Shown here: in pieces, positions 5,387 to 43,282 of the stretch
Layout: every line of letters begins with the position of its first letter
How positions within the stretch are numbered: the stretch's first letter is position 1
Origin: a virus
Lineage: Duplodnaviria > Heunggongvirae > Uroviricota > Caudoviricetes
Reading direction: 5' to 3' (one strand)
DNA length: 64,000 bases
IMG/VR virus record: IMGVR_UViG_3300016457_000036
Location: 7,253 to 71,252 of that record
Notes under the pieces: model-generated
What the model saw: the letters and a program-made list of their open reading frames with translations, nothing else
The model's database searches: none
What the model was told of the DNA's origin: nothing
Made by a program: the position numbers and the translations under genes

Positions 5387-5455
5387 ATGATGTATGTATT
5401 ACCTGATGGTACGCTTATTTCATATGAAGAGTTCAAAGCTCTTCGTGGATTATAG
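5387..5455 (+). CDS. micro-ORF (22 aa, MMYVLPDGTLISYEEFKALRGL)
   Basis: perfect AAAGGAG Shine-Dalgarno sequence; followed by 6-bp hairpin AAGGGC(10 nt)GCCCTT at 5470-5491. Confidence 0.2.
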   Translation: MMYVLPDGTLISYEEFKALRGL

Positions 5456-29127: not shown

Positions 29128-29512
29128 CACTTGCCGTTTCAGTTTTGCAACTTGCCGTCCTAGAAAAGTTGTGTTTAAATCTGCGACAGAAGACGCTGTT
29201 ATTGAGTGTGACAAATTCGAGGAACCGCCTACTAAACATGGTTTTAAATACACAGGTCCCGGTCGTATACCTGACACACTTCTTCTTAACGTATCTCATC
29301 GTGAATATCATCGTAGAGTATTTGAAAAATGTGTACCTGAATACCTTACATACAAACTTCGTAAACTAAAAGACGTTATTGAACATTCTGTAAAAGATGG
29401 ACTACTAGTTCTTTCACCTAATGAAAACCTTCAATTACTACATCGCCTCAAAGCACTTAAAACTGTACAGGCTGAACTCGACTATATCTACTCAACAGGA
29501 AAAACTTCATGA
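29084..29512 (+). CDS. hypothetical protein (142 aa)
   Basis: ATG at 29084 inside track ORF. Confidence 0.4.
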   Translation: MKNEKTQNVPLNLCDTCRFSFATCRPRKVVFKSATEDAVIECDKFEEPPTKHGFKYTGPGRIPDTLLLNVSHREYHRRVFEKCVPEYLTYKLRKLKDVIEHSVKDGLLVLSPNENLQLLHRLKALKTVQAELDYIYSTGKTS

Positions 29513-30267
29513 AACCATTCTTTAAGTACGCAGGTATTCACTACCCTGTATTCGGCTCTGCTGTAGGGTGGGAAAACGGCCGCTATAAGTCAGAAATGTC
29601 ACGCTTAGTCGGTGGCTATGGTGATAACTACGGTAAGTGGTGGACATTCTCTTGGGGATGGAAAACACGTGTATGGAATAAAGCTAAGCCTCTTAAACAG
29701 TTTATCGTTGATGCAGTAGCCGATCACCCTGAGATGGAAATTGAATGGCGTTGGTTCGAGGACTCACATCCTGAACAAGGCGGTATGTGGGCGGTAGTTC
29801 ACGCTGAAACTAAACAGTATCTTGGAAATCTCTTAGATGCGTTCTACATGACACCACTTACACAGATCACACATGGTACAGGCTTTAACATCTCAGAGCA
29901 GAAATGGTACGGATGGTCACACCGTGCTAAATATGGCTTTGGTGTTGGTTCTACAGTCAAGAAAGGCGATGTTGCTTATAAAGCACGTAACCCACATGAA
30001 CTTGTAGAGGCCTGTCTCAGATTTTGGGGCGATGTAGACTACCCTAAAAAAGTAGAGAAAATTGAACATAACTACCTTGAAGATTTTAATAATACTACAG
30101 GTGTGATGATCACTTTCGATACTACTGAAGAACTCGTAGAAGGCGGTGTACAACAGACCGGTGAATTTATCCCGTATCCTGAAACATGGGGACGTGGTGA
30201 ATGGACTGCAGAAACTCTTGAAGATGCTCATGAAATGGCACTAGCTTTCTCAGATGGCGTATCGTGA
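29509..30267 (+). CDS. hypothetical Trp-rich protein (252 aa)
   Basis: ATGA overlap; no motif recognised. Confidence 0.5.
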   Translation: MKPFFKYAGIHYPVFGSAVGWENGRYKSEMSRLVGGYGDNYGKWWTFSWGWKTRVWNKAKPLKQFIVDAVADHPEMEIEWRWFEDSHPEQGGMWAVVHAETKQYLGNLLDAFYMTPLTQITHGTGFNISEQKWYGWSHRAKYGFGVGSTVKKGDVAYKARNPHELVEACLRFWGDVDYPKKVEKIEHNYLEDFNNTTGVMITFDTTEELVEGGVQQTGEFIPYPETWGRGEWTAETLEDAHEMALAFSDGVS

Positions 30268-31378: not shown

Positions 31379-31587
31379 TGGAACTCTATGATGCCTTATG
31401 GATAGTTATACCTCTATGGCTATTCGTCGATGAAAGATTAGCTTTCCTTGTAGGTGTTGTTCTTTTATTCGGAGTAGGTATTACTTATCTTCCCGAACAT
31501 TCTCCATCTCAAAACTTAACTCAGATCCACGCAACAGATGTAAATACGTCTGCACCTAGTAGTGATGATACTACTGATTGGCATTAA
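31378..31587 (+). CDS. small membrane protein (69 aa, 2 TM), possible NfeD-like SPFH partner
   Basis: hydrophobic WIVIPLWLFV / LVGVVLLFGVGITYL; immediately upstream of SPFH gene. Confidence 0.4.
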   Translation: MELYDALWIVIPLWLFVDERLAFLVGVVLLFGVGITYLPEHSPSQNLTQIHATDVNTSAPSSDDTTDWH

Positions 31588-31588
31588 C

Positions 31589-32461
31589 TTGAAAAAAATT
31601 CTATCTCTATTGGCTTTAGTAGCCGTAATGATGCTCAGCACAGGCTGTTCGTATGACACAGTACCACAAGGTACAAAAGGTAAGGTCTTAGACCGCTCAG
31701 GCTTCCAACCGGAAGTTTACCCACCGTCACGTGTTGATGTTGGTTTACACGGTAACTTGGTACTTGTTGAAACGATCACACATACTGTAAACGAAACTGT
31801 TACAGTACGTATGAAAGACGATATGAACCTTGTTGCACAGGTACGTTTTAAATTACGTATGGGTGAGAAACCAAAATCTCTTAATCTTGTATTCAATGAT
31901 ATTAGACCTGGTGAAGGTGGTATTATTACTCTGAAACAGATCTATGAAGTACACGGTAAGATGCTTGTTAACAAGATCGCACGTGAAGTACTTTCACAGT
32001 ACAACATTGGAGATGTAAACGATAACTTTACACATATCTCTTCTGACATTTATAACAAGACTCTTGAAGCTTTCAAGCCTACACCACTTATCGTAACTGA
32101 TGTAGCACTTGGTAAACTTGACTATCCTGATGTTATTGACCGCGCTATTGAAGCAGCAGCTAAACGTGAACTTGAAATCAAACAAGCCGAAGCTGATGTT
32201 GCTGTACGTCTTACAGAACTGAAGGGTAAAGAGAAGGTCGCAGAAGGTGAATATCGTATCAAAATGCAGGAAGCGAAACGTATTCGTGACTACAATAAAA
32301 TGATCGCTAAAGGTATTACACCACAACTTCTACAACTTCGTCAGCTTGAAGTACAACAAGCGATGGTGCAAACTATCGAAAAGGGTGATGCTACCACTAT
32401 CTTTATTCCTTACGGATCTCAAGACAGCTTAGGTATGCAAACACGCATGTACAGTAAGTAG
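31589..32461 (+). CDS. SPFH (band-7/stomatin/HflC-like) domain lipoprotein (290 aa from TTG)
   Basis: TTG start gives MKKILSLLALVAVMMLSTGC lipoprotein signal; body has SPFH-like ...VALGKLDYPDVIDRAIEAAAKRELEIKQAEADVAV. Confidence 0.55.
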   Translation: MKKILSLLALVAVMMLSTGCSYDTVPQGTKGKVLDRSGFQPEVYPPSRVDVGLHGNLVLVETITHTVNETVTVRMKDDMNLVAQVRFKLRMGEKPKSLNLVFNDIRPGEGGIITLKQIYEVHGKMLVNKIAREVLSQYNIGDVNDNFTHISSDIYNKTLEAFKPTPLIVTDVALGKLDYPDVIDRAIEAAAKRELEIKQAEADVAVRLTELKGKEKVAEGEYRIKMQEAKRIRDYNKMIAKGITPQLLQLRQLEVQQAMVQTIEKGDATTIFIPYGSQDSLGMQTRMYSK

Positions 32462-33971: not shown

Positions 33972-34286
33972 ATGGCAATCATTACTACTTCAATTTCCGG
34001 ACCTAAAAAAGGTATCCCACATCGCCTCAGAGCAGGTGTAGTTATTAGAACACCTGAACGCGCAGAAACAGATGGCGAGTATTATGAACGTAATTTAGGC
34101 TTCTTCAACAATAGTGCTAACGTCCCTACTACTTGCCCTAAGTGTGAAGCTGTGCTAATACAGCGTATGAAACGTCTCAGTCCTGGTAACATCACAAGTG
34201 TTACTCTAAACTGTTCTAACAAAAAATGTAAACGTGTGTATGTATCTGCATACCCGGCTAAAAAGGTAAACGCTTATGGAAACTAA
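33972..34286 (+). CDS. zinc-ribbon protein (104 aa)
   Basis: AAAGGACAAATAATG; CPKCEA...CSNKKCKRV. Confidence 0.4.
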   Translation: MAIITTSISGPKKGIPHRLRAGVVIRTPERAETDGEYYERNLGFFNNSANVPTTCPKCEAVLIQRMKRLSPGNITSVTLNCSNKKCKRVYVSAYPAKKVNAYGN

Positions 34287-35136
34287 ACAAAAAACAGTGT
34301 GTGTATATCACGGTAACTGTCTTGATGGATTTACTGCTGCATGGGTTCTACACTCAGCCTTAAATCCTTTTACTGATTTAACACTTGTAAAAGGTGCATA
34401 CACAGAAAAACTTGATGTAGATCAATTTATTGATGCTGACGTATACTTTGTAGACTTCTCAGTTAAAGCTCCTGAAATGCAAGCAATCGCTGCAGTAGCC
34501 AATAAAGTAGTTATTCTTGATCACCACGCTTCAGCAGAACGTGAACTACAAATCGTAGCTGAAAAAACCGGTAATGTTCACATCGAATTTGATATGAAAC
34601 GCTCAGGCGCTATGATTACATGGGATTATTTTTTCCCTTCTTCAGAAGCTCCTACTCTTATTAAAATCGTACAAGATCGTGATCTATGGCTATTTAAAAA
34701 TCAGTATACTAAAGCACTTACTGCTTATATGTTTACACTTGAACAGACTATTGATGTATGGAACGATCTTCTTACTGATGTAAATTCAGGTAAAGCTATT
34801 GACATGGGTCAAGTACTTCTTGATGCACATGACAAAAATGTAGCTGCTATCATCGATGGCTGTACTCGTGAAGTTTTACTCGGAGAGCATAAAGTCAATT
34901 TAACTAATGCTCATTGGATGTATGCCTCTGATATAGGTCATAAAACTATTGGTGACAACCTATTCTCAATGTCGTATTTTATCAACTCAGATGGGGTATA
35001 TTCATACTCTCTACGCGCTGATAATAATTTCGACTGCTCTGTATTAGCTGAAACTTACAGAGGTGGTGGGCATCCTAATGCTGCAGGTTTCTCATCAGTT
35101 TTACCGGTATGGACTGAGATCAACGAAGAACTGTAA
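34276..35136 (+). CDS. DHH/DHHA1 family phosphoesterase (NrnA/RecJ-like, 286 aa)
   Basis: VCVYHGNCLDGFTAAWVL (motif I), ILDHHASAE (DHH), GGGHPNAAGF (DHHA1). Confidence 0.75.
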   Translation: METKQKTVCVYHGNCLDGFTAAWVLHSALNPFTDLTLVKGAYTEKLDVDQFIDADVYFVDFSVKAPEMQAIAAVANKVVILDHHASAERELQIVAEKTGNVHIEFDMKRSGAMITWDYFFPSSEAPTLIKIVQDRDLWLFKNQYTKALTAYMFTLEQTIDVWNDLLTDVNSGKAIDMGQVLLDAHDKNVAAIIDGCTREVLLGEHKVNLTNAHWMYASDIGHKTIGDNLFSMSYFINSDGVYSYSLRADNNFDCSVLAETYRGGGHPNAAGFSSVLPVWTEINEEL

Positions 35137-35559: not shown

Positions 35560-35865
35560 GCTATAATACATCTCTTGGGTCCATGTTCCCGCTACACATG
35601 GCATGAAAACTAGATCTGCAGATCTTAAGCGCCTCAGTAAGCAAGTAGCCGTTATCGGAAGAGTACGTAACTCTTCTAAAAAACTTACCTCTTAAAATAT
35701 AATATAAAATATTCTAAAAGGTGTGTTTTATAAGCCGCCAATCCCGCACTCTGTAGGGGCATATAACAGAGTATGAAAAAAGGTTATGGTACGCAGCCTA
35801 GACATCATCTAAACGTCTAAAGGTACTAGGTGTAGAAATTAAATACTTCTACACCGCGCACTTAT

Positions 35866-35940
35866 CGAGGTATGGCCAAGTGGTAAGGCGGCGGCTTTTG
35901 GTGCCGTTATTCGGGGGTTCGAGTCCCTCTACCTCTACCA
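35866..35940 (+). tRNA. tRNA-Gln (anticodon TTG)
   Basis: cloverleaf: D-arm GCCAAGTGGTAAGGC, anticodon stem GCGGC/GCCGT loop TTTTGGT, T-arm GGGGG-TTCGAGT-CCCTC, CCA encoded; resembles E. coli tRNA-Gln. Confidence 0.8.
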
Positions 35941-36106
35941 TATGGTCGAAAGACCACCATGACTAAACAACAGGTAACTTCAGAAAGCTTATAGTGAGCT
36001 ACGTTGAAGATTAAAAGCATCACGTACTAATGGATCACTAATCCATGAACGCAACGTCATCCTGTACTGCATACTAAGTTACAGTAGAGAATTGTTTAGT
36101 CTAAAT

Positions 36107-36190
36107 GTAAAGTAAAAGTTGTTCGGATACAGCACCGAGACTGTAAATCTCGTCTTTAGGGGAGTGGTTCGAGTCCACTACTTTACACCA
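36107..36190 (+). tRNA. tRNA-Tyr (anticodon GTA), long D/variable region
   Basis: acceptor GTAAAGT/ACTTTAC, anticodon stem CGAGA/TCTCG loop CTGTAAA, T-arm AGTGG-TTCGAGT-CCACT, CCA encoded; D-arm fold ambiguous. Confidence 0.6.
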
Positions 36191-36195
36191 TATGT

Positions 36196-36271
36196 TACGT
36201 TATAGCTCAGTTGGTAGAGCGTTTCGCTGTTAACGAAAATGTCCCTGGTTCGAGTCCAGGTTACGTAGCCA
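36196..36271 (+). tRNA. tRNA-Asn (anticodon GTT)
   Basis: TAGCTCAGTTGGTAGAGC D-arm, TTTCG-CTGTTAA-CGAAA anticodon arm, CCTGG-TTCGAGT-CCAGG T-arm, CCA encoded. Confidence 0.85.
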
Positions 36272-36443
36272 CATGATCGCAAGATCACCAAAAAAACAGG
36301 TACTCACCTGTACAAAAAGAGTAGCTAAATTTTTGACAACTTGGAAAGACAAGTCAGTAGTCCTCTCGAAGCCGAGGAGCAAATAGTTATTTAAGGGTAG
36401 AGCCTATATGCCTAGTCATACAATGATAACTAGCTACATAAGT

Positions 36444-36519
36444 GGGGAATTAGCTCAGCTGGGAGAGCGTCTGCCTTGCACGTAGAAGGTCAGCGGTTCG
36501 ATCCCGCTATTCTCCACCA
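36444..36519 (+). tRNA. tRNA-Ala (anticodon TGC)
   Basis: GGGGAAT acceptor with G3:U70, anticodon loop CTTGCAC, T-arm AGCGG-TTCGATC-CCGCT; near-identical architecture to E. coli tRNA-Ala. Confidence 0.85.
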
Positions 36520-36725
36520 AATATGGGACGAAAGTTAGCGAATACTGTCGGAGTCATGACCTTCAGGAGTGAGTAAAAATCTCACAGATCCCACCACTTA
36601 AATATGGTCCGACTAGAAATAGATTACCATGCGCGGTAAGGGAAGCCTAAAACTTTCTCGGCCACCACCTAAATATGGTCGTTACACGATCACCATCACA
36701 CACAAATTAAATAAGGAACTACCCC

Positions 36726-37487
36726 ATGTCAAAACCTGTATTACACGAATTACTTGCCGTAGAGCAAGGACTATCTGAAACAGCTAATCGTATCACTAAA
36801 GAGACGATCAAAACACTATCTACTAAGCAATCTATCTTTGCCGGTATGAACAAAGCACACACTATCTTCGCAGAAGATCAGCAACACCTGGTTCAAGCTA
36901 CAGAGTACAAAGAAGTACAATCTACTGCAGATGAGCAGATCAACTTTCTAAACACAGAGATCGCTCGTTATTGGGACGTTACTCTACAAAAAGAAGAGGC
37001 AAACCAACGTGCTAATGCAGACATCATTATTGATGGTACTACTCTCGCTACAAATGTACCTTCTATCGTTTTACTAGGTCTTGAAAAGAAACTTACTTCT
37101 CTTCTAGCAGTTTATAACGCATTACCTACACTTGATGCTGCTACAGCTTGGGAAAGTGATCCATCTGCATCTAAAGATGGTATCTTTCGTACTAAGTATC
37201 CTGAAGAGCGTCAGCACAACGTAACTGAGCTAAAGTATATCATTGCTGCACCTGCAACTGAGCGTCATCCTGCACAAGTCAAAGAGCAAAGTATTACTGA
37301 TGTTATCGGTAAATATGTGATCACTACTTTCTCAGGTGCTATCACTTCATACGACAAAGCAGCACGTCTTGAGAAGCTTACTAAACTGATCCGTGCTGTG
37401 AAAAAAGCTCGTCAACGTGCCAACAACACAGAAGTAAACACAGATCTTACTATCGGTGCTACTATGCTAAAATACATTAACGATTAA
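36726..37487 (+). CDS. hypothetical protein (253 aa) embedded in stable-RNA island
   Basis: ATAAGGAACTACCCCATG; long clean ORF. Confidence 0.5.
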   Translation: MSKPVLHELLAVEQGLSETANRITKETIKTLSTKQSIFAGMNKAHTIFAEDQQHLVQATEYKEVQSTADEQINFLNTEIARYWDVTLQKEEANQRANADIIIDGTTLATNVPSIVLLGLEKKLTSLLAVYNALPTLDAATAWESDPSASKDGIFRTKYPEERQHNVTELKYIIAAPATERHPAQVKEQSITDVIGKYVITTFSGAITSYDKAARLEKLTKLIRAVKKARQRANNTEVNTDLTIGATMLKYIND

Positions 37488-37806
37488 TTCGTTAGTGGGT
37501 AAACGAAAGTTTGCCACATTAAGTGTATTTACAATAGCTATGTAACGTAGGCATTAAATGATAGTATATGTCTCAAAGCACAGCTAGGAAACTATCCTTG
37601 TTCATTCGGCTATGCATAGTTGTATGATCACCTGTAAATACATTTACTGTGGTAAATTTATCTTTACATTTATTCACCCTACTATACTCTAACTGAGGTG
37701 GTAGGTTATTTTCATTCTTATTTTATCACCACGATAAATTAAGTTCTGAAGACCTTTAAAAAAGAGTACACCACTCGCGCAGAACTACTTCTTTTAGTTA
37801 ACGTAC

Positions 37807-37868
37807 ATGGGTTCGAGTCCCATTCCGGCCACCATTTAATACGGCCGGGTGATGTAAGCGGCTTACAT
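37807..37868 (+). ncRNA. permuted tRNA-like element P1: 3' half (T-arm + TCCGGCC-A-CCA) followed by matching 5' acceptor GGCCGGG
   Basis: ATGGG-TTCGAGT-CCCAT T-arm, acceptor 3' strand, ACCATTTAATAC spacer, then complementary 5' strand and 8-bp palindrome ATGTAAGCGGCTTACAT. Confidence 0.4.
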
Positions 37869-37940
37869 CGTTAATATAATTTATCTTAAAAAGTAGTTAC
37901 TAGCAACTAATAGGTTGAACATCATTTAACACAAAAATTT

Positions 37941-38010
37941 GAAGGTTCGAGTCCTTCCCCGCCTACCATTACTTTACAGGCGGGTAGTCGAATTGGTTAT
38001 AGACGTTTGT
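37941..38010 (+). ncRNA. permuted tRNA-like element P2: T-arm + CCCGCCT-A-CCA, spacer, 5' half AGGCGGG-TA-GTCG...
   Basis: GAAGG-TTCGAGT-CCTTC T-arm; 5' acceptor AGGCGGG perfectly complementary 13 nt downstream followed by D-arm-like GTCGAATTGGTTATAGAC. Confidence 0.4.
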
Positions 38011-38019
38011 ATAATGCAC

Positions 38020-38052
38020 GACAGAGGAAATAAAGGTTATTATTCCTCTGTC
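38020..38052 (+). other. strong hairpin (10-bp stem GACAGAGGAA / TTCCTCTGTC, 13-nt loop)
   Basis: perfect 10-bp inverted repeat in ORF-free region. Confidence 0.6.
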
Positions 38053-38297
38053 TCAAAACATAGCTCTAGGGGTATATACGTATTGTAGTACTTAGTAGTG
38101 TGGATCACGGACTACAATCCCGATCTCGTATTTTGTCTCGTCCCGCAAGGATGTACAGACAGAGCGACAAAACGCTGCGGTGTACCCTGAGAGGTGTGTT
38201 TTAAAGCCACCACAAGATTCTGTAGTAATAGTCTCTAATGCTGTAAGTATGGCACTACTTGTAATAGTGTCAGGATCACTTACTGTATTACGTCCGA

Positions 38298-38419
38298 CAT
38301 GACGTTAAACATGACATTACTTTGTGATTAAAGTAGTTACCGAGAACGTAGACTAATAATCTACTCAGTACCGGACCGGCATGACGTTAAACATGACATT
38401 ACTTTGTGATTAAAGTAGT
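38298..38419 (+). repeat. two perfect 40-bp direct repeats (CATGACGTTAAACATGACATTACTTTGTGATTAAAGTAGT) 42 bp apart
   Basis: copies at 38298-38337 and 38380-38419; each contains ACTTT-GTGATT-AAAGT inverted repeat. Confidence 0.7.
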
Positions 38420-38736
38420 CAGTACAGACTTAAAAAACATAATCATATATTCACGATTATTTTTATTGTGACTGATAGGATAGACTATCTCCTGCTGCGG
38501 ATTCGCGGTGGGGTAACATATAAGGTAATAATTATGAGTAATCTTAAAAATGCAATCGTACAACAGTTAATAACAGAAGACGCTGCAATCTATAAAAACA
38601 ATGATAAATATATCCACATCTACGGACGAGAAGATGCAGATTGGGGTATAGATATTTACGATGGAATGGATTATAATGTTCCTTCATTTTCCTGTATAAT
38701 GGAAAAAGGCACAGCAGCTGAAGCTTTCGATTACGC

Positions 38737-38811
38737 GGGTGAGTCGTCTAACGGTTAGGGCCCGCCTCTCATAAAGGCGGTATCAGAGTTCGATTCTCTG
38801 CTTACCCACCA
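38737..38811 (+). tRNA. tRNA-Met/Ile2 (anticodon CAT), elongator-type
   Basis: acceptor GGGTGAG/CTTACCC (G1-C72 paired), anticodon arm CGCCT-CTCATAA-AGGCG, T-arm CAGAG-TTCGATT-CTCTG, CCA encoded. Confidence 0.7.
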
Positions 38812-39262
38812 TTTAGCACAGCCTAGTGCATAGAGCCTACATGGTTAAAGGCTTGAGTATATGTAAGAAATACCTATCTTAACATAACTCTTAATCTATG
38901 TACTATGGTGTGCTTTGAGGCATACACAACGAGTTCTTCTTTGATGTAACTCAGCATAAAGTTCTCAGCTCCCACCGGCCCAGTTTAATCAGCAGCGATG
39001 GCCTATAACTCAGAAATGATTAGCGAGACTCAGGTTCCTCTTTTAGGCTCCTTCCTTGTCTCGCGATTAAGCATACCTTTCATTACATTATGTGTACTGA
39101 CAGGTGTGCTTTTTTGGTAATTATGTACACATGGTGGAGATTTCTAGTAGTGGCGGAATTCAATAAAGACGCTAAATAACAGTTCCTCCGTTCAGAGTGC
39201 TGTATGAGCTAACTTGAAAATTAGCAATTCATAGGTGGAAGTCCTGTGACTACTTTATATAT

Positions 39263-39610
39263 GGGCGCAACATGGCTTCGACAGGAAATTGGTCCCACCC
39301 CGAATGATACAAGGTATGATACTACCTCAACAGATCATTAACTTAAATGTAAACAACATGAATTTTAATCCTACTGCAGAGCTTGCTGCTGCGTAGTGTG
39401 GACCGGGACAGACACATAACCAACTTGTCCCACACTTTAAGTCTTTGCCTTGTTGCAGAGCCTAGCACCGTAAGTTCACGCTAGTAACCAATTCTTACAT
39501 CCTTGTTTTACAGTTTTACGCATATTGACTGTGATAAATTGCACGTATCGTGAAGTTCGGTTAAAAAGATGATTTTTTGGACTCGGGTTCGATACCCGAT
39601 GCGTCCACCA
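39263..39610 (+). ncRNA. ssrA: tmRNA (ssrA-like transfer-messenger RNA), tag reading frame ...NFNPTAELAAA-stop
   Basis: 5' GGGCGCA-ACATGG-CTTCGAC-AGG and 3' GGAC-TCGGG-TTCGATA-CCCGA-TGCGTCC-A-CCA match tmRNA consensus; internal ORF gca gag ctt gct gct gcg tag ends 39396. Confidence 0.75.
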
Positions 39611-39762
39611 TACGCTATCCCCTTGATACTATTATGTAGTATGAATGGGGTTGCGAAGCTGCAGATGCAACCACTAAAATCTTATACGCAGCATAGTACT
39701 TCTTCATTTCTATTAAAACTATGAAGAACGCTCCCGGGTATGGTCGGCTAGGGAGAGTAGTG

Positions 39763-39785
39763 TTGACCTTTGTTTATGATATAAT
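39763..39785 (+). promoter_or_regulatory. promoter candidate: TTGACC ... extended -10 TGATATAAT
   Basis: perfect TGnTATAAT at 39777-39785; -35-like TTGACC at 39763 (short spacer). Confidence 0.4.
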
Positions 39786-39824
39786 TTTCTCAGTTCCTTT
39801 ATACATGTTAAGTATATAATTGTA

Positions 39825-40021
39825 GTTACTCCGCCTTCGGGCATCACATTTGGGATATGACTTACTGCAATTTCTAACTTAGCATTTATAAGGGAATATG
39901 TACACAGTTACTCCTGCTGTTTTCAGCAATTCACTGCTAATGATTTTACTGTGCACACTCTCCCTGTTAGTCTTCAATAAACTCAAGTTTATGGTATTGG
40001 TTACTCCGCCTTCGGGCACCA
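39825..40021 (+). repeat. repeated leader element GTTACTCCGCCTTCGGGCAYCA (x2; GTTACTCC x3) each preceded by AT-rich -10-like box
   Basis: copies at 39825-39846 and 40000-40021, third GTTACTCC at 39907; contain C-UUCG-G tetraloop. Confidence 0.5.
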
Positions 40022-40098
40022 AACTTCTAATTTGATCTTACCTCTACTACTCACTTGAGTTTATTGAACACTATCACTAAAACTAAAAGGAAATCCCC

Positions 40099-42294
40099 AT
40101 GAAAAACTTAGCACTACAACGCCTAATCTATGGCATGACAAACACTATCGTAATCGAGTCTACCGGTCCTAAAGAAGTCGTAACTGAAATCGAGGCTGTA
40201 CGTTCTAGCATGGCTATCGAGGGCTTTATCTTCCGTCCGGGTTTCGCTAACACTACTGAACTAACTGACTATACAGAAGCTGATTGGGCTGCTATGTATG
40301 CACAATATTCTTTAACATATGGATGGAGTACACTTTACACAGCCCGTACAGGTAATAATCCTGTTACTGTACTTGATGCATACTTTACTGATCTTGGCAA
40401 TATCTTTTCTCCGCTTGAAGTAGCGCCTAAAGCGTATTATGTGGCTGAGCCTGTTTTCTATGAAAAAGTATTGACTGACATCGCTGAGTCAAAAATTGTA
40501 TTACGTACACATCAGATCGAGATCTTAAATCTTATGCCTATCGAAATACTTGCTAAAATTTATGAGAATGTCGTATTCACCATCATAGAAACTCGTATTC
40601 TGTTTCTAAAACGTCTCATTACTGAAGGTAAAGAAATCGCTGCATTTACTACACCTGAAGAGATTGTAAAATTCGTCATAGCTGTCTTTCCTAAGAACAC
40701 AGAGCCATACACAGGACAAGTCACTAACGACATATTAAAAGCAATCGAAGTAAAAATTCCTACATCTATGCGTAAAGTTATTGTTCGCTCTATTCAAAAG
40801 ATGAGCTACTTTAAAGCTATCAGAGGCATGAAGAAAAACAAAAACTTTTGGAAACGTCTATTTAAGCAACTTGCATGGCAATCCGAAGAAAAAATGATCG
40901 CTACTGCTCGCTTTCAAAACTACCTTGATATTAAAGGTACTGTCTTCAATGAGACTATCATCACACCTCGCTCAGACATCGAACAGTATCGTCGTGAAGG
41001 TAACTTAGAAACTGCTTTTATTGTTGAGATGAAAAACACAGGCGGGATGTTACGAAATCTTATGTCATACCTACGTTATCCGATCGGATCTACTTATGCT
41101 AAAAAAGTAAGCATGGCACCTGATGCAAAAGAACACGGTATTGCTATGTACTTTAATAAAAAAGTACAGGAAGAAGTACGTGCTACTGTCGTTCATTCTG
41201 ACATTACCAATGTCTTAGCATCTGACGAATTTATGAAGTGTCTTACTCAGGCTAACTCTAAGCTACTATGGCAAGTACTCACACTTCTACAGGACAAGAA
41301 AAACACAGTCCCTAAATCTGTTCGTGTTGTAAACGACACTAAGATCAAATACTCAAAAGCTTTACCGGGTATCGATCCTAAAATGACTGAGCTTGCTAAA
41401 AAAGCCATTAAAAAGGCTATCAAAAAAGTGAAACGTGCTGAAAATGCATCTCTTGGTAAAGTTTACATAGACAAAACACTTAAAAACTACGCTATGCAGT
41501 TCTCAGGTCGCTCAGAAACGTCAATCTCACTATCAGGTGAATACTTGTCTCCGGGAAGTAAAATTGACCTTACAGACCTTCTGAAGGGTGAAGATAAAAT
41601 CTTACGTATGGGTATTGCATGGACAGGTGCTTCATGTGATGTTGACCATGCTCTAAATATCTTCGGTATGCGTTCTATCTATTACGGTAATCCTACCTTA
41701 GCAGATACAGAAGGTCGTGTAGTTATCTCATCTTCAGGTGATATTACATCATGTAGTCCTGGTCTATTCAGTACAGAGATTATCGATATTGATGTAGATC
41801 AACTTGCTACGTCTAACGTAGAGAAGATCTTTAATTCTGCTCATATGTTTGCAGGTCCTACTTTCGATAAAATTGAATGTTATTGGTTCATGAATATCAT
41901 CGATAAAAAAGATCGTATCCTTGAAAAACGTAAAGTTGCAATCGCACTTGATGCAATGCAATATGCTATTAAGCTTCAAGAACCTACTCGTGCACAGGTA
42001 GGTTTCTCTGTCGATCTGAAAAAGAAAGAACTTGAAGTTTTAAATCTTCCATCAAAACAATCGCAGTATAATAATGCTGCTACTTGTAAAGAAGATTTTG
42101 AGAAGCTGTTAGCTGAACGTCCTAAGCAAAAATCATTGTATAAAGCAATGAAAACTGTTATCGCTAAAGATCAGCTGACTGATAATATTTTAGAAGCTGA
42201 CTTGATTATTTCTGCTGAACCTGATCAGCCTGCAGGCATTACTGTCTTGCATCCGGGCAGAGATGCAGTAGCACTACAAGAAATTATCTTTTAG
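40099..42294 (+). CDS. large hypothetical protein (731 aa)
   Basis: AAAAGGAAATCCCCATG; long clean ORF; no motif recognised. Confidence 0.6.
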   Translation: MKNLALQRLIYGMTNTIVIESTGPKEVVTEIEAVRSSMAIEGFIFRPGFANTTELTDYTEADWAAMYAQYSLTYGWSTLYTARTGNNPVTVLDAYFTDLGNIFSPLEVAPKAYYVAEPVFYEKVLTDIAESKIVLRTHQIEILNLMPIEILAKIYENVVFTIIETRILFLKRLITEGKEIAAFTTPEEIVKFVIAVFPKNTEPYTGQVTNDILKAIEVKIPTSMRKVIVRSIQKMSYFKAIRGMKKNKNFWKRLFKQLAWQSEEKMIATARFQNYLDIKGTVFNETIITPRSDIEQYRREGNLETAFIVEMKNTGGMLRNLMSYLRYPIGSTYAKKVSMAPDAKEHGIAMYFNKKVQEEVRATVVHSDITNVLASDEFMKCLTQANSKLLWQVLTLLQDKKNTVPKSVRVVNDTKIKYSKALPGIDPKMTELAKKAIKKAIKKVKRAENASLGKVYIDKTLKNYAMQFSGRSETSISLSGEYLSPGSKIDLTDLLKGEDKILRMGIAWTGASCDVDHALNIFGMRSIYYGNPTLADTEGRVVISSSGDITSCSPGLFSTEIIDIDVDQLATSNVEKIFNSAHMFAGPTFDKIECYWFMNIIDKKDRILEKRKVAIALDAMQYAIKLQEPTRAQVGFSVDLKKKELEVLNLPSKQSQYNNAATCKEDFEKLLAERPKQKSLYKAMKTVIAKDQLTDNILEADLIISAEPDQPAGITVLHPGRDAVALQEIIF

Positions 42295-42414
42295 TATTGA
42301 TGCGTTGAGTTCTTCCATGTCTCTTGTAAGTCATCGCTCCTTTAAGACTATGGGGATAGTCCTTAAATAATTTCCGTCGGGTTATTAACTTTTTCCCGGC
42401 GGTTTCCTAAATGT

Positions 42415-42491
42415 TAGAGATTAGCTCAGTTGGTAGAGCAATCCTCCGTAAAACAGAAGATGTGTCGAAGGTTCGAGTCCTTCATCTCGCC
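42415..42491 (+). tRNA. degenerate tRNA-like gene (possible pseudo-tRNA; anticodon arm not foldable)
   Basis: perfect D-arm TAGCTCAGTTGGTAGAGC and T-arm GAAGG-TTCGAGT-CCTTC, but acceptor has 2 mismatches and no 5-bp anticodon stem; no CCA. Confidence 0.3.
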
Positions 42492-42536
42492 ATTAGTAAG
42501 TATATTGTATTAGTTACTTCAAACACGCACGATGTC

Positions 42537-42613
42537 GCAGGTTCGAGTCCTGCTCGCTCCACCATTTAATTATGAGGAGCGATAGCTCAGTTGGTAGAGC
42601 GCATGCCTTAACT
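42537..42613 (+). ncRNA. permuted tRNA-like element P3: 3' half (GCAGG-TTCGAGT-CCTGC + TCGCTCC-A-CCA) then 5' half GGAGCGA-TA-GCTCAGTTGGTAGAGC-G-CATGC-CTTAACT
   Basis: 5' acceptor perfectly complementary to upstream 3' strand; spacer ACCATTTAATTATGA; no T-arm downstream of 5' half. Confidence 0.4.
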
Positions 42614-42970
42614 ACTATTACAACTCACTTACTAGTTTATTCTATACAGCATCCGAGTACTGCAACTCCTCGGATACTGTCAGAGTAAACTGTAAATCAT
42701 TTCCGTTTAAGGGCCCTATCCACTCTGTAATAACGGCAGATATAAAACTGTAAATTGATCCAAAGGTAACTCTTAACAGTAAGACCTATATCGCACATCG
42801 CAATAGGCAAGTTTAGAGTGTAATTCCTATCTTACATTCCCTGTATATTCGTAACACCTTTATACCCTCTACGTGTCTATCCTACTCGTAGAGGGATCAT
42901 TAAATATGGCTGAAATGCCACCAAAATAATCTGAACCTGCAGAAATACAGGCGAAGATGTTTGAAACAAC

Positions 42971-43049
42971 TTGACTGCTAGGAAAGACTAGTTAACATAA
43001 TCGATTTAACAATCGGATGTGAAAAAATTTGACTGTTAGGAAAGACTAA
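42971..43049 (+). repeat. two copies of TTGACTG(C/T)TAGGAAAGACTA, promoter-like
   Basis: copies at 42971 and 43030 in 1-kb ORF-free region; begin with TTGACT. Confidence 0.4.
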
Positions 43050-43282
43050 CACAACTAGAGACATGGCAACTAATCGCGATACGTCGTGGGGTAGCCCGCT
43101 GTCCTAGTCTCTTTTGTTTATGGTAAAGTATATTTTGATATACTATCTCATGAATAAGGTTTCCCCATGTTATACACATCATTGTTGACGTATGCTCAAG
43201 GCATTATCATTCCCTCACTTACACTTACCTGTACTGCACCGTACCAACCATTTCTCGTACTTATGTCCGATAATACATCAAA

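What the first reader, a model, noticed from the sequence alone, without database searches (positions are those of the whole stretch)
37807..42613. Three circularly permuted tRNA-like elements: a tRNA 3' half lies directly upstream of its matching 5' half
At 37807-37868, 37941-38010 and 42537-42613 a canonical T-arm (xxxGG-TTCGAGT-CCxxx) is followed by a 7-nt acceptor 3' strand, a discriminator A and CCA. An AT-rich spacer of 8-11 nt beginning ACCATT comes next, and then a 7-nt segment perfectly complementary to that acceptor strand (GGCCGGG, AGGCGGG, GGAGCGA). In the second and third elements a D-arm continues from it (GTCGAATTGGTTATAGAC; TAGCTCAGTTGGTAGAGC-G-CATGC-CTTAACT). No partner 5' half lies upstream and no T-arm lies downstream, so these are not ordinary or intron-containing tRNAs. 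The layout is that of permuted tRNA genes, where the 3' half precedes the 5' half. Such genes have been described in the red alga Cyanidioschyzon merolae (a eukaryote) and a few archaea, and would be highly unusual in a phage. The alternatives are tRNA-derived recombination scars, attP-like 3'-tRNA fragments, or tRNA-mimicking minihelices (T-arm + acceptor) followed by hairpins. Three copies with the same architecture argue for a function.
Basis: seen in the sequence. Interest (0 to 1): 0.8.

Follow-up and report, generated by a model that had tools for sequence, protein, structure and literature searches.

The report
Phage tRNA-mimic Y-like RNAs, not tRNAs
The three "back-to-front tRNAs" are real, but they are most likely tRNA-shaped decoy domains inside small Y-RNA-like non-coding RNAs that work with a neighbouring, highly divergent Ro60-like protein, a design already known from bacteria and some phages, not permuted genes for working tRNAs.

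Summary
At 37807-37849, 37941-37984 and 42537-42582 a canonical T-arm is followed by a 7-nt strand, ACCA, an AU-rich loop and a perfect 7-nt complement. These are the only T-arms in the window outside tRNA or tmRNA genes.

They are not permuted tRNA genes, because no anticodon loop can be rebuilt. The layout (T-arm, loop-closed acceptor stem, D-arm, all closed by a long 5'/3' stem) is that of YrlA-type bacterial Y RNAs. The literature itself describes those as resembling circularly permuted tRNAs.

- **Element 3:** it matches Rfam YrlA below threshold (36.6 bits, cut-off 69). It has syntenic orthologues with compensatory changes.
- **Shared motif:** a GUUACUYC-plus-stem motif occurs in element 3, in three small RNA units upstream of the gene, and in RNA arrays next to genuine TROVE/Ro60 genes in other phages.

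The encoded ACCA and 7-bp stems predict RNase P opening into a two-piece, CCA-ended mimic, as shown for Mycobacterium smegmatis YrlA.

Verdict: a new variant of a known kind, of moderate interest.

The parts
37779..37904 (+). E1: a small RNA whose ends pair (AACTACTT(C)TTTT / AAAAAGTAGTT, then TTAACG / CGTTAA). They close a four-way junction made of a T-arm (37807-37823), a loop-closed 7-bp acceptor stem (37824-37849, loop ACCATTTAATAC) and an 8-bp D-position hairpin (37851-37869).
   Evidence: RNAfold minimum-free-energy structure -37.2 kcal/mol, z -3.1. Sequence. My covariance model, which was not trained on E1, gives 35.5 bits.
37941..38010 (+). E2 core: T-arm (37941-37957), loop-closed 7-bp acceptor stem (37958-37984, loop ACCATTACTTTAC) and a D-like arm GTCGAATTGGTTATAGAC (37987-38004). 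The outer closing stem is not defined.
   Evidence: Sequence. The fold of the wider region is ambiguous (z -0.4). Compared with E1, the acceptor hairpin differs by two double compensatory changes (G1-C72 to A1-T72, C3-G70 to G3-C70), read directly from the sequence.
42495..42633 (+). E3: a complete Y-RNA-like molecule. It has an outer stem (42495-42501 / 42627-42633), an inner stem ending in GT followed by the GTTACTTC motif (42513-20), a variable region, a T-arm (42537-42553), a loop-closed acceptor stem (42554-42582, loop ACCATTTAATTATGA), a D-arm (42585-42600) and an anticodon-stem analogue.
   Evidence: Rfam YrlA 36.6 bits, E 4.9e-5. RNAfold -40.7 kcal/mol, z -2.9. Orthologues in L089, L092 and L090 have 7 of 25 consensus pairs changed on both sides.
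39818..39872 (+). Y-like unit U1: a closing stem AATTGTAGT / ACTGCAATT around TACTCC and two small hairpins.
   Evidence: Orthologous units occur in L089, L090, L092 and L098.
39899..39957 (+). Y-like unit U2: a closing stem TGTACACAGT / ACTGTGCACA around TACTCC.
39973..40068 (+). Y-like unit U3: a 16-bp outer stem (TTCAATAAACTCAAGT / ACTTGAGTTTATTGAA) enclosing a GGTTACTCC unit.
   Evidence: minimum free energy -33.6 kcal/mol for the folded stretch 39965-40075, which contains U3..
40099..42294 (+). Candidate partner protein, 731 aa: a Ro60-like helical-repeat domain (about residues 1-450) followed by a TerD-like beta-sandwich (about residues 480-660).

Best explanation
E1-E3 are the tRNA-like domains of small non-coding RNAs of the Y-RNA / YrlA type.

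**Architecture (shown)**
- Each RNA's 5' and 3' ends pair into a long stem.
- The middle folds like the upper part of a tRNA: T-arm stacked on a 7-bp acceptor stem, plus a D-arm or a D-position hairpin.
- The acceptor stem is closed by a loop, and there is no anticodon loop.

**Partner protein (inferred)**
- In E3 the stem carries a conserved internal-loop motif (5'-..GU|UACUYC ... AC..-3'). I infer that this is the docking site for the 731-aa Ro60-like protein encoded 200 nt upstream.
- Three simpler RNAs with the same motif (U1-U3) lie in that gene's leader.

**Processing (inferred from the M. smegmatis YrlA precedent)**
- In this phage the acceptor stems are exactly 7 bp and are followed by A-CCA and an AU-rich linker.
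- RNase P would therefore cut 5' of the acceptor 5' strand, and 3' exonucleases would trim back to CCA.
- The product would be a two-piece RNA with a tRNA-like CCA end, held together by the acceptor stem and the closing stem.

**Function (inferred)**
- The ribonucleoprotein presents a tRNA look-alike to host tRNA-binding or RNA-decay factors during infection.
- It would act as a tether or decoy, as Ro60-Y RNA complexes do with PNPase.
For: 1. **Rfam YrlA matches.** RF02553 is the only non-tRNA family matching E3 (36.6 bits, E 4.9e-5, full-length model). It also matches independently found elements of the same layout: L035 40.1, L044 40.2, L043 36.2, L089 41.1, L092 35.7, L096 48.3 and L095 35.7 bits.
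2. **Conservation of E3.** It is syntenic downstream of the 731-aa gene in phages whose protein is 60% identical. The acceptor hairpin is completely replaced yet still paired: TCGCTCC/GGAGCGA, CATCGGT/GCCGATG and CATGACG/CCTCGTG. The closing stems covary.
4. **The GTTACTYC motif.** There are 33 copies in the non-coding flanks of this gene family in 11 loci. An anchored closing stem of at least 8 bp occurs in 21 of them (control 7%), and of at least 10 bp in 11 (control 1.2%).
5. **Link to genuine Ro60 genes.** The same motif, and an E3-like element with an ACCA loop, lie just upstream of genuine TROVE/Ro60 genes in two other phage contigs, L099 and L100.
6. **Published precedent.** YrlA is described as a permuted-tRNA mimic. 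M. smegmatis YrlA has a 7-bp stem, is cut by RNase P in vivo and in vitro, and receives CCA. Y RNAs typically lie within 4 kb of Ro60 on the same strand.
7. **CCA style.** All true tRNAs and the tmRNA of this phage encode CCA followed by A/T, like E1-E3.
8. **Loop dichotomy.** Every acceptor loop of 11 nt or more begins N-CCA, and every loop of 8 nt or less lacks it.
Against: - All Rfam YrlA scores are far below the gathering score of 69. E1 and E2 get no YrlA hit at all.
- The published Ro60-binding motif GNCGAAN0-1G is absent.
- E1 and E2 lack the GUUACUYC motif in an internal-loop context. They have no orthologue in the related phages. E2's outer fold is not better than shuffles.
- The E3 orthologues lack the CCA, and the L090 copy has lost the acceptor hairpin and half the D-arm. 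The CCA end and even the complete tRNA shape are therefore not indispensable.
- There are no expression or binding data.
Confidence: 0.7

Rival explanations
1. E1 and E2 (and perhaps E3) are free-standing tRNA-acceptor mimics that act without any Ro60-like protein. After RNase P and exonuclease processing they would expose a CCA end. They would then serve as decoys or substrates for enzymes that act on the acceptor/T-arm minihelix, such as CCA-adding enzyme, tRNA-targeting toxins or defence nucleases, aminoacyl-tRNA synthetases or EF-Tu.
For: - E1 and E2 lack the GUUACUYC internal-loop motif and have no Rfam YrlA hit.
- All three carry 7-bp stems plus ACCA, exactly like this phage's own tRNA 3' ends.
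- They sit in an island of tRNAs and a tmRNA.
Against: - E3 clearly carries the motif shared with RNAs next to Ro60 genes.
- E1 and E2 are within 2.3 kb of the Ro60-like gene on the same strand, which meets the published neighbourhood criterion for Y RNAs.
- The E3 orthologues do without CCA.
Confidence: 0.15
2. They are true circularly permuted tRNA genes. The transcript would be circularised or its ends ligated, then opened at the acceptor loop to give a functional tRNA, as in Cyanidioschyzon merolae.
For: - The 3'-half-before-5'-half order is present, with a perfect acceptor stem, discriminator A and CCA.
- After rotation, ARAGORN in intron mode recognises a tRNA body.
Against: - No 7-nt anticodon loop closed by a 5-bp stem can be reconstituted.
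- The ARAGORN 'introns' scale with the arbitrary flank length, and the 'anticodons' are stop or SeC.
- The anticodon-side ends form long helices of 7-16 bp with internal loops, conserved by covariation.
- E1 has no D-arm.
- The E3 orthologues have short closed loops without CCA.
- From established knowledge, bacterial hosts lack the bulge-helix-bulge (BHB) splicing endonuclease that the algal pathway requires.
Confidence: 0.03
3. They are debris of tRNA genes: halves left by deletions or duplications in a tRNA array, or attP-like 3' fragments.
For: - The region is a tRNA island.
- At a relaxed threshold, ARAGORN can join E1's 5' half to E2's 3' half as a 'tRNA-Val with a 44-nt intron'. That shows E1 and E2 are related to each other.
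Against: - That cross-pairing has a C-C mismatch, whereas each element's own hairpin is 7/7.
- E1 and E2 differ by two double compensatory changes that preserve the within-element hairpin.
- The E3 orthologues keep the hairpin with entirely different sequences.
- A 44-nt intron at 36/37 with A33 has no bacterial splicing mechanism.
- No Pfam, PHROG or Pfam-on-record match among the neighbouring genes I scanned was to an integrase. I did not scan every ORF in the window.
Confidence: 0.05
4. They are pieces of a two-piece (permuted) tmRNA gene, in which the acceptor piece precedes the coding piece.
For: - The gene order is the same as in permuted ssrA genes.
- E1's T-arm gives a weak tmRNA hit (12.6 bits).
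Against: - A complete one-piece tmRNA is present at 39263-39610.
- There is no hit to Rfam tmRNA_permuted at E1-E3.
- None of the three has the G3-U70 pair needed for alanine charging. The third pairs are C-G, G-C and A-U, read directly from the sequence.
Confidence: 0.02

Closest known systems
YrlA (Y RNA-like A; Rfam RF02553), especially Mycobacterium smegmatis YrlA
   Same: - The order is T-arm, loop-closed acceptor stem, D-arm, with the anticodon-stem analogue continuing into a protein-binding stem formed by the RNA's two ends.
- It is encoded next to its Ro60-type partner on the same strand, alongside further small Y-like RNAs.
- The M. smegmatis form has a 7-bp acceptor stem, is cut by RNase P and ends in CCA (PMC4201824). 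That matches the 7-bp + ACCA design of E1-E3.
   Different: - Scores are below the Rfam gathering threshold.
- The GNCGAAN0-1G motif is replaced by GUUACUYC.
- CCA is fully encoded and followed by an 8-11 nt AU-rich linker.
- The partner protein is not a recognisable TROVE protein and carries TerD instead of vWA.
- E1 replaces the D-arm with an 8-bp hairpin.
Phage Ro60-Y RNA systems (mycobacteriophages, CcrColossus, Bacillus phage G, Thermus phage phiLo phiRo60 with Yrl1/Yrl2; PMC12135203)
   Same: A phage-encoded Ro60-type protein has two or more Y-like RNAs directly upstream of the gene. Each RNA has a stem-bulge-stem protein-binding region.
   Different: - The phiLo Yrls use a CGAA motif and are not described as tRNA-like.
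- Those proteins are canonical TROVE + vWA.
Circularly permuted tRNA genes of Cyanidioschyzon merolae and some archaea
   Same: The 3' half lies upstream of the 5' half, with a short intervening sequence joining the acceptor strands.
   Different: Those reconstitute a complete cloverleaf with an anticodon, through a circular intermediate made by the BHB endonuclease and a ligase. Here there is no anticodon loop and there is a conserved long closing helix.
tmRNA and viral tRNA-like structures
   Same: They are tRNA mimics with a T-arm and acceptor stem, and (as predicted here) a CCA end.
   Different: Those have a free, chargeable acceptor end made directly from the transcript termini, and they have identity elements such as G3-U70. 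E1-E3 have neither.

Membership tests
YrlA (Rfam RF02553) | Covariance-model score at or above the curated gathering score (69 bits) | tested here: not met
   E3 scores 36.6 bits (E 4.9e-5). E1 and E2 have no hit at E <= 1.
YrlA (Rfam RF02553) | tRNA-like module in the order T-arm, loop-closed acceptor stem, D-arm, closed by a stem formed by the 5' and 3' ends | tested here: met
   E3 shows it fully. E1 has an 8-bp hairpin in the D position. E2 has a weak D-arm and an undefined closing stem.
YrlA (Rfam RF02553) | GNCGAAN0-1G motif near the 5' end (the proposed Rsr contact; Chen 2014) | tested here: not met
   A regex search over 37700-38120 and 42400-42720 finds none in the 5' strands. The one match, at 42464, is inside the T-stem of the neighbouring odd tRNA. 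GUUACUYC occupies the equivalent place.
YrlA (Rfam RF02553) | Encoded within 4 kb of a Ro60 (TROVE) gene on the same strand | tested here: inconclusive
   E3 lies 200 nt downstream of the 731-aa gene, and E1 and E2 lie 2.1-2.3 kb upstream. That gene is Ro60-like by fold only, not by Pfam TROVE.
YrlA (Rfam RF02553) | Bound by Rsr/Ro60; T and D loops modified by TruB and DusA | not testable with these tools
   This needs immunoprecipitation and modification mapping.
Permuted tRNA genes (C. merolae type) | The 3' half lies upstream of the matching 5' half | tested here: met
Permuted tRNA genes (C. merolae type) | The two halves together give a full cloverleaf with an anticodon stem-loop and a sense anticodon | tested here: not met
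   Rotated sequences are called only in intron mode. The 'intron' length equals the flank supplied, and the 'anticodons' are stop or SeC.
Permuted tRNA genes (C. merolae type) | A bulge-helix-bulge motif at the transcript ends, used for endonuclease cleavage and circularisation | not tested
   No formal BHB search was run. The ends form long regular helices.
Two-piece (permuted) tmRNA | Match to the Rfam tmRNA_permuted model; G3-U70 in the acceptor stem | tested here: not met
   No hit at E1-E3. The third acceptor pairs are C-G, G-C and A-U.
Ro60 / TROVE protein family (for ORF 40099-42294) | Pfam TROVE domain (PF05731) | tested here: not met
   None of the 19 family members match, even at E <= 10. 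hhalign against a phage TROVE protein gives probability 0.2.
Ro60 / TROVE protein family (for ORF 40099-42294) | Helical-repeat fold of Ro60 | tested here: met
Ro60 / TROVE protein family (for ORF 40099-42294) | C-terminal vWA domain with a MIDAS site | tested here: not met

The most novel reading that the evidence does not exclude
The 731-aa protein founds a previously unrecognised branch of Ro60-like RNA-binding proteins. It is invisible to TROVE sequence models and has a Ca2+-binding-type TerD domain in place of vWA. The branch occurs in gut-metagenome phages and at least one apparently cellular contig. It would have its own Y-RNA family, defined by the GUUACUYC module. In this phage the tRNA-like Y RNAs carry genomically encoded CCA, so they would be opened by RNase P into two-piece molecules with a genuine tRNA 3' end. 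Such molecules could be charged, or could be recognised by enzymes that act on the CCA end.
Probability: 0.4. Interest if true: 0.65.

Novelty: new variant of a known kind. Interest (0 to 1): 0.5.

Why it matters
- **It removes an apparent anomaly.** What looked like permuted tRNA genes in a phage is placed in the Y-RNA/YrlA class of tRNA mimics.
- **It points to something unannotated.** There appears to be a phage Ro60-like ribonucleoprotein whose protein escapes every sequence model. Its RNAs share a new conserved module that is also found next to genuine Ro60 genes.
- **It would extend what is known, if confirmed.**
  - It would widen the known range of Ro60/Y-RNA systems in phages.
  - It would offer a compact system of one protein and four to six small RNAs for studying how tRNA mimicry is used during infection.
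  - It would give a natural second example of a Y RNA opened by RNase P to expose a CCA end.

Tried and rejected
- **Close relatives in cultured phages:** none. Megablast of 35800-43000 found only tRNA matches. tblastn of the 731-aa protein found one weak fragment.
- **Protein-based locus searches:** the IMG/VR search found nothing. Two scans of GTDB genomes found nothing.
- **Sequence annotation of the 731-aa protein:** nothing from Pfam, PHROGs, PDB sequence search, a profile search of PDB sequences, or hhalign against a TROVE protein.
- **My own covariance model of the tRNA-like core (R1):** it found the known elements, but junctions between tandem tRNAs score up to about 50 bits. It therefore cannot separate weak candidates such as E1 at 35.5 bits. 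This is the same artefact that Chen et al. warned about.
- **MAFFT alignments:** they misplace the acceptor hairpins because loop lengths differ. I therefore read acceptor covariation from a regex parse, not from the count of structure pairs.
- **One pattern hit rejected:** L029 turned out to be two ordinary tandem tRNAs.
- **A reading considered and rejected:** E1's 5' half plus E2's 3' half as an intron-containing tRNA.
- **No covariation from other samples:** the same phage in other samples is more than 99.9% identical.
- **Not available:** the AFDB Foldseek library.
- **No literature found:** no paper in the held library links TROVE with TerD or DUF2828.

Full report
**1. Observation**

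- Each has a 5-bp T-stem with the loop TTCGAGT.
- This is followed directly by a 7-nt strand, then A-CCA, then 8-11 AU-rich nucleotides, then a 7-nt strand that pairs 7/7 with the first.
- ARAGORN finds six tRNAs and a tmRNA in the window, but nothing over E1-E3, even in intron mode. Rfam's tRNA model agrees.
- A scan for T-arm-like hairpins shows that, apart from one weak non-canonical match at 5427, every one on the + strand outside a tRNA or tmRNA gene belongs to E1-E3.
- A 7/7 hairpin with a 3-30 nt loop occurs at 2.5% of random positions. Three out of three is therefore far beyond chance.
- Only E3 has a canonical D-arm. E2 has a weak one. E1 has an 8-bp hairpin with a CGG loop in that place.

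**2. Not permuted tRNA genes**

- I rotated each element, placing the 5' half and its downstream flank in front of the upstream flank and 3' half, and ran ARAGORN.
- Without introns nothing is found, apart from one spurious call.
- With introns a tRNA body is recognised. However, the 'intron' is always as long as whatever flank I supplied, and the 'anticodons' are UUA (stop) or UCA (SeC).
- There is no 7-nt anticodon loop.
- RNAfold instead closes E1 and E3 with long helices formed by the flanks (-37.2 and -40.7 kcal/mol, z about -3).

**3. What the layout matches**

- A permissive Rfam scan gives one non-tRNA family for E3: YrlA, 'Y RNA-like'. The match is full-length, 36.6 bits, E 4.9e-5, against a gathering score of 69.
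- The model's structure is the order seen here: closing stem, T-arm, closed acceptor hairpin, D-arm.
- Chen et al. 2014 (PMC4201824) defined YrlA as a Ro60-bound RNA with a tRNA-like module. They reported it in 254 bacteria and 22 phages.
- They showed that M. smegmatis YrlA, the one with a 7-bp acceptor stem, is cut by RNase P in vivo and in vitro. It ends in CCA and so forms a two-piece RNA.
- Wang et al. solved the YrlA module. [quoted passage not shown]

**4. Independent examples elsewhere**

- I scanned IMG/VR for T-arm + 10 N + ACCA + gap + D-arm, which gave 88 loci.
- Only three distinct loci besides the window had fully complementary acceptor halves: L035 (same as L064), L043, and L044 (same as L083). 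A fourth, L029, was a chance pair of tandem tRNAs.
- All three fold with a closing stem and hit YrlA at 36-40 bits.
- A regex search without the ACCA requirement found further copies with short loops.
- Across the twelve elements, every acceptor loop of 11 nt or more starts N-CCA, and every loop of 8 nt or less lacks it.
- Three of the CCA cases were found with a pattern that required ACCA. The frequency of CCA is therefore not meaningful. The dichotomy still holds for the elements found without that requirement.

**5. The neighbouring protein**

- ORF 40099-42294 (731 aa) has no Pfam, PHROG or PDB-sequence match.
- It has 19 homologues at 29-100% identity, all from metagenomes.
- An AlphaFold2 model has pLDDT 81.9. 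It shows a helical-repeat N-terminal part and a beta-sandwich.

**6. Conservation around that gene**

I fetched contigs carrying homologues.
- **Close relatives.** In L089 and L092 (60% protein identity), E3 is present at the same place.
  - The T-arm, D-arm and flanks are conserved.
  - The acceptor hairpin is entirely different but still paired: CATCGGT/GCCGATG, and CATGACG/CCTCGTG at 6/7.
  - The loops are short and have no CCA.
- **Consensus fold.** RNAalifold on four orthologues gives the outer and inner closing stems, the T-arm and the D-arm. Seven of the 25 pairs are changed on both sides.
- **A degraded copy.** In L090 (45% identity) the T-arm and closing stems remain, but the acceptor hairpin and half the D-arm are gone.
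- **Distant homologues.** L095 and L096 (29-30% identity) have YrlA-like elements with 4-nt loops. These lie 2 kb and 0.35 kb upstream of the gene, at 35.7 and 48.3 bits.
- **An unrelated contig.** In L044, two such elements directly precede a 687-aa protein that is weakly similar to the 731-aa protein in the TerD-like part (BLASTP 3e-8).

**7. A shared RNA module**

- Upstream of every homologue there are 300-600 nt without ORFs. These stretches carry two to four copies of GTTACTYC.
- Each copy sits at the end of a helix whose two strands differ from unit to unit but stay complementary (5'-NNNNNGT|TACTYC ... AC NNNNN-3').
- Of 33 copies in the gene's flanks in 11 loci:
  - 21 have an anchored stem of at least 8 bp (control 7%);
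  - 11 have one of at least 10 bp (control 1.2%);
  - 24 have a 3' strand starting with AC.
- In the window these are U1-U3 (39818-40068). E3 carries the same module (TAGT|TACTTC ... CCTTA|ACTA).
- The same module, extended 5' by GAAGCGG, forms arrays upstream of genuine TROVE genes.
  - In the jumbo-phage contig L043/L099, five units and an ACCA-loop tRNA-like element precede a 553-aa protein. That protein scores 20.5 bits on Pfam TROVE and has PDB phmmer hits to phiLo Ro60 at 3.3e-9.
  - In L100 the TROVE score is 38.3 bits.
- This ties the module to Ro60-type proteins. It is the main reason I read the 731-aa protein as the partner of E3 and U1-U3.

**8. E1 and E2**

- Related phages have no orthologue of them. 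Neither hits YrlA. Neither has the module in an internal-loop context.
- They appear to be paralogues of each other. Their acceptor hairpins share four pairs and differ by two double compensatory changes and one G-U to G-C change.
- That argues for the within-element hairpin. It argues against the relaxed-threshold ARAGORN reading that joins E1's 5' half to E2's 3' half. That reading has a C-C mismatch, A33, and a 44-nt 'intron'.
- Both lie within 2.3 kb upstream of the Ro60-like gene on the same strand.
- I consider them additional tRNA-like small RNAs of the same system, with lower confidence than for E3.

**9. Mechanism**

- **Shown:** the folds, the covariation, the gene association and the module.
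- **Inferred:** binding of the module by the Ro60-like protein.
- **Inferred from the M. smegmatis precedent:** RNase P cleavage 5' of the acceptor 5' strand and trimming to CCA. This also rests on the 12-bp acceptor/T helix plus ACCA, and on the fact that this phage's own tRNAs and tmRNA all end ...CCA followed by A/T.
- **Inferred function:** a tether or decoy toward host tRNA-binding or RNA-decay factors, by analogy with Ro60-Y RNA-PNPase complexes and the phiLo system.
- **Caveat:** the orthologues lack CCA, so the free CCA end is a lineage-specific elaboration and not the core function.

**10. Verdict**

- The 'permuted tRNA gene' reading is not supported.
- The elements work like YrlA-type Y RNAs but fail three formal membership criteria: Rfam score, the GNCGAA motif, and a TROVE neighbour.
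- I therefore class them as a new variant of a known kind.
- The more interesting by-product is the sequence-invisible Ro60-like/TerD protein family and its GUUACUYC RNAs.

Noticed in passing
window 42415-42491: An aberrant tRNA-like gene sits just upstream of E3. ARAGORN calls it tRNA-Leu(UAA), and Rfam tRNA gives only 35.8 bits. It has an imperfect acceptor stem and an over-long anticodon arm with a 9-nt loop by eye. It ends G-CCA. It is conserved at the same place in L092 (8673-8744) but not in L089.
   Followed up: partly
window 38050-38210 (L092 4611-4765): A conserved non-coding stretch lies right after E2. It begins CATAGCTCTAGGGGTATAT and ends CCCTGAGAGGTGTGTTTTAA, and the two ends are complementary. 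The same ends flank a stretch in L092, where it follows an ordinary tRNA. There is no Rfam hit. It may be another structured RNA.
   Followed up: no
window 38294-38337 and 38376-38419: A 44-nt direct repeat (about 98% identical, containing CATGACGTTAAACATGACATTA) lies in the non-coding stretch between E2 and tRNA-Met. It showed up as a self-match.
   Followed up: no
window 39768-39785 and 42636-42652: A conserved box TTTGTTTATGATATAAT lies just upstream of unit U1. Related boxes occur in L089, L090, L092 and L095. A similar GTTTATTCTATACAG follows E3 in all orthologues. These may be a phage promoter or a processing signal.
   Followed up: no
window 42640-43280: About 640 nt after E3 contain no ORF of 50 aa or more, yet they are 69-75% identical to L089, L090 and L092. 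There is no Rfam match. This may be a further non-coding RNA or a regulatory region.
   Followed up: no
window 39263-39610: The phage encodes a one-piece tmRNA with tag VNNMNFNPTAELAAA. It lies in the same RNA island and is conserved in L089.
   Followed up: no
L035 1514-3022: In an unrelated tRNA-rich phage contig, two YrlA-like elements (1056-1135 and 1210-1278) are followed by a protein with DUF2828 + DUF7788 and a DxSxS vWA-type motif. This could be another unrecognised Ro60-like partner.
   Followed up: partly
L093 5693-8553: An 850-aa homologue of the 731-aa protein, with two GTTACTTC units upstream, lies on a 36.6-kb contig whose other genes look cellular (pyruvate:ferredoxin oxidoreductase, rhodanese, UvdE). 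The system may therefore not be restricted to phages.
   Followed up: partly
window 29509-30267, 31562-32461, 34276-35136, 36726-37487: Genes upstream of the RNA island include a Tad6-like Thoeris inhibitor, an SPFH/Band-7 protein, a DHH phosphoesterase and a DUF7873 protein that lies directly before E1.
   Followed up: no
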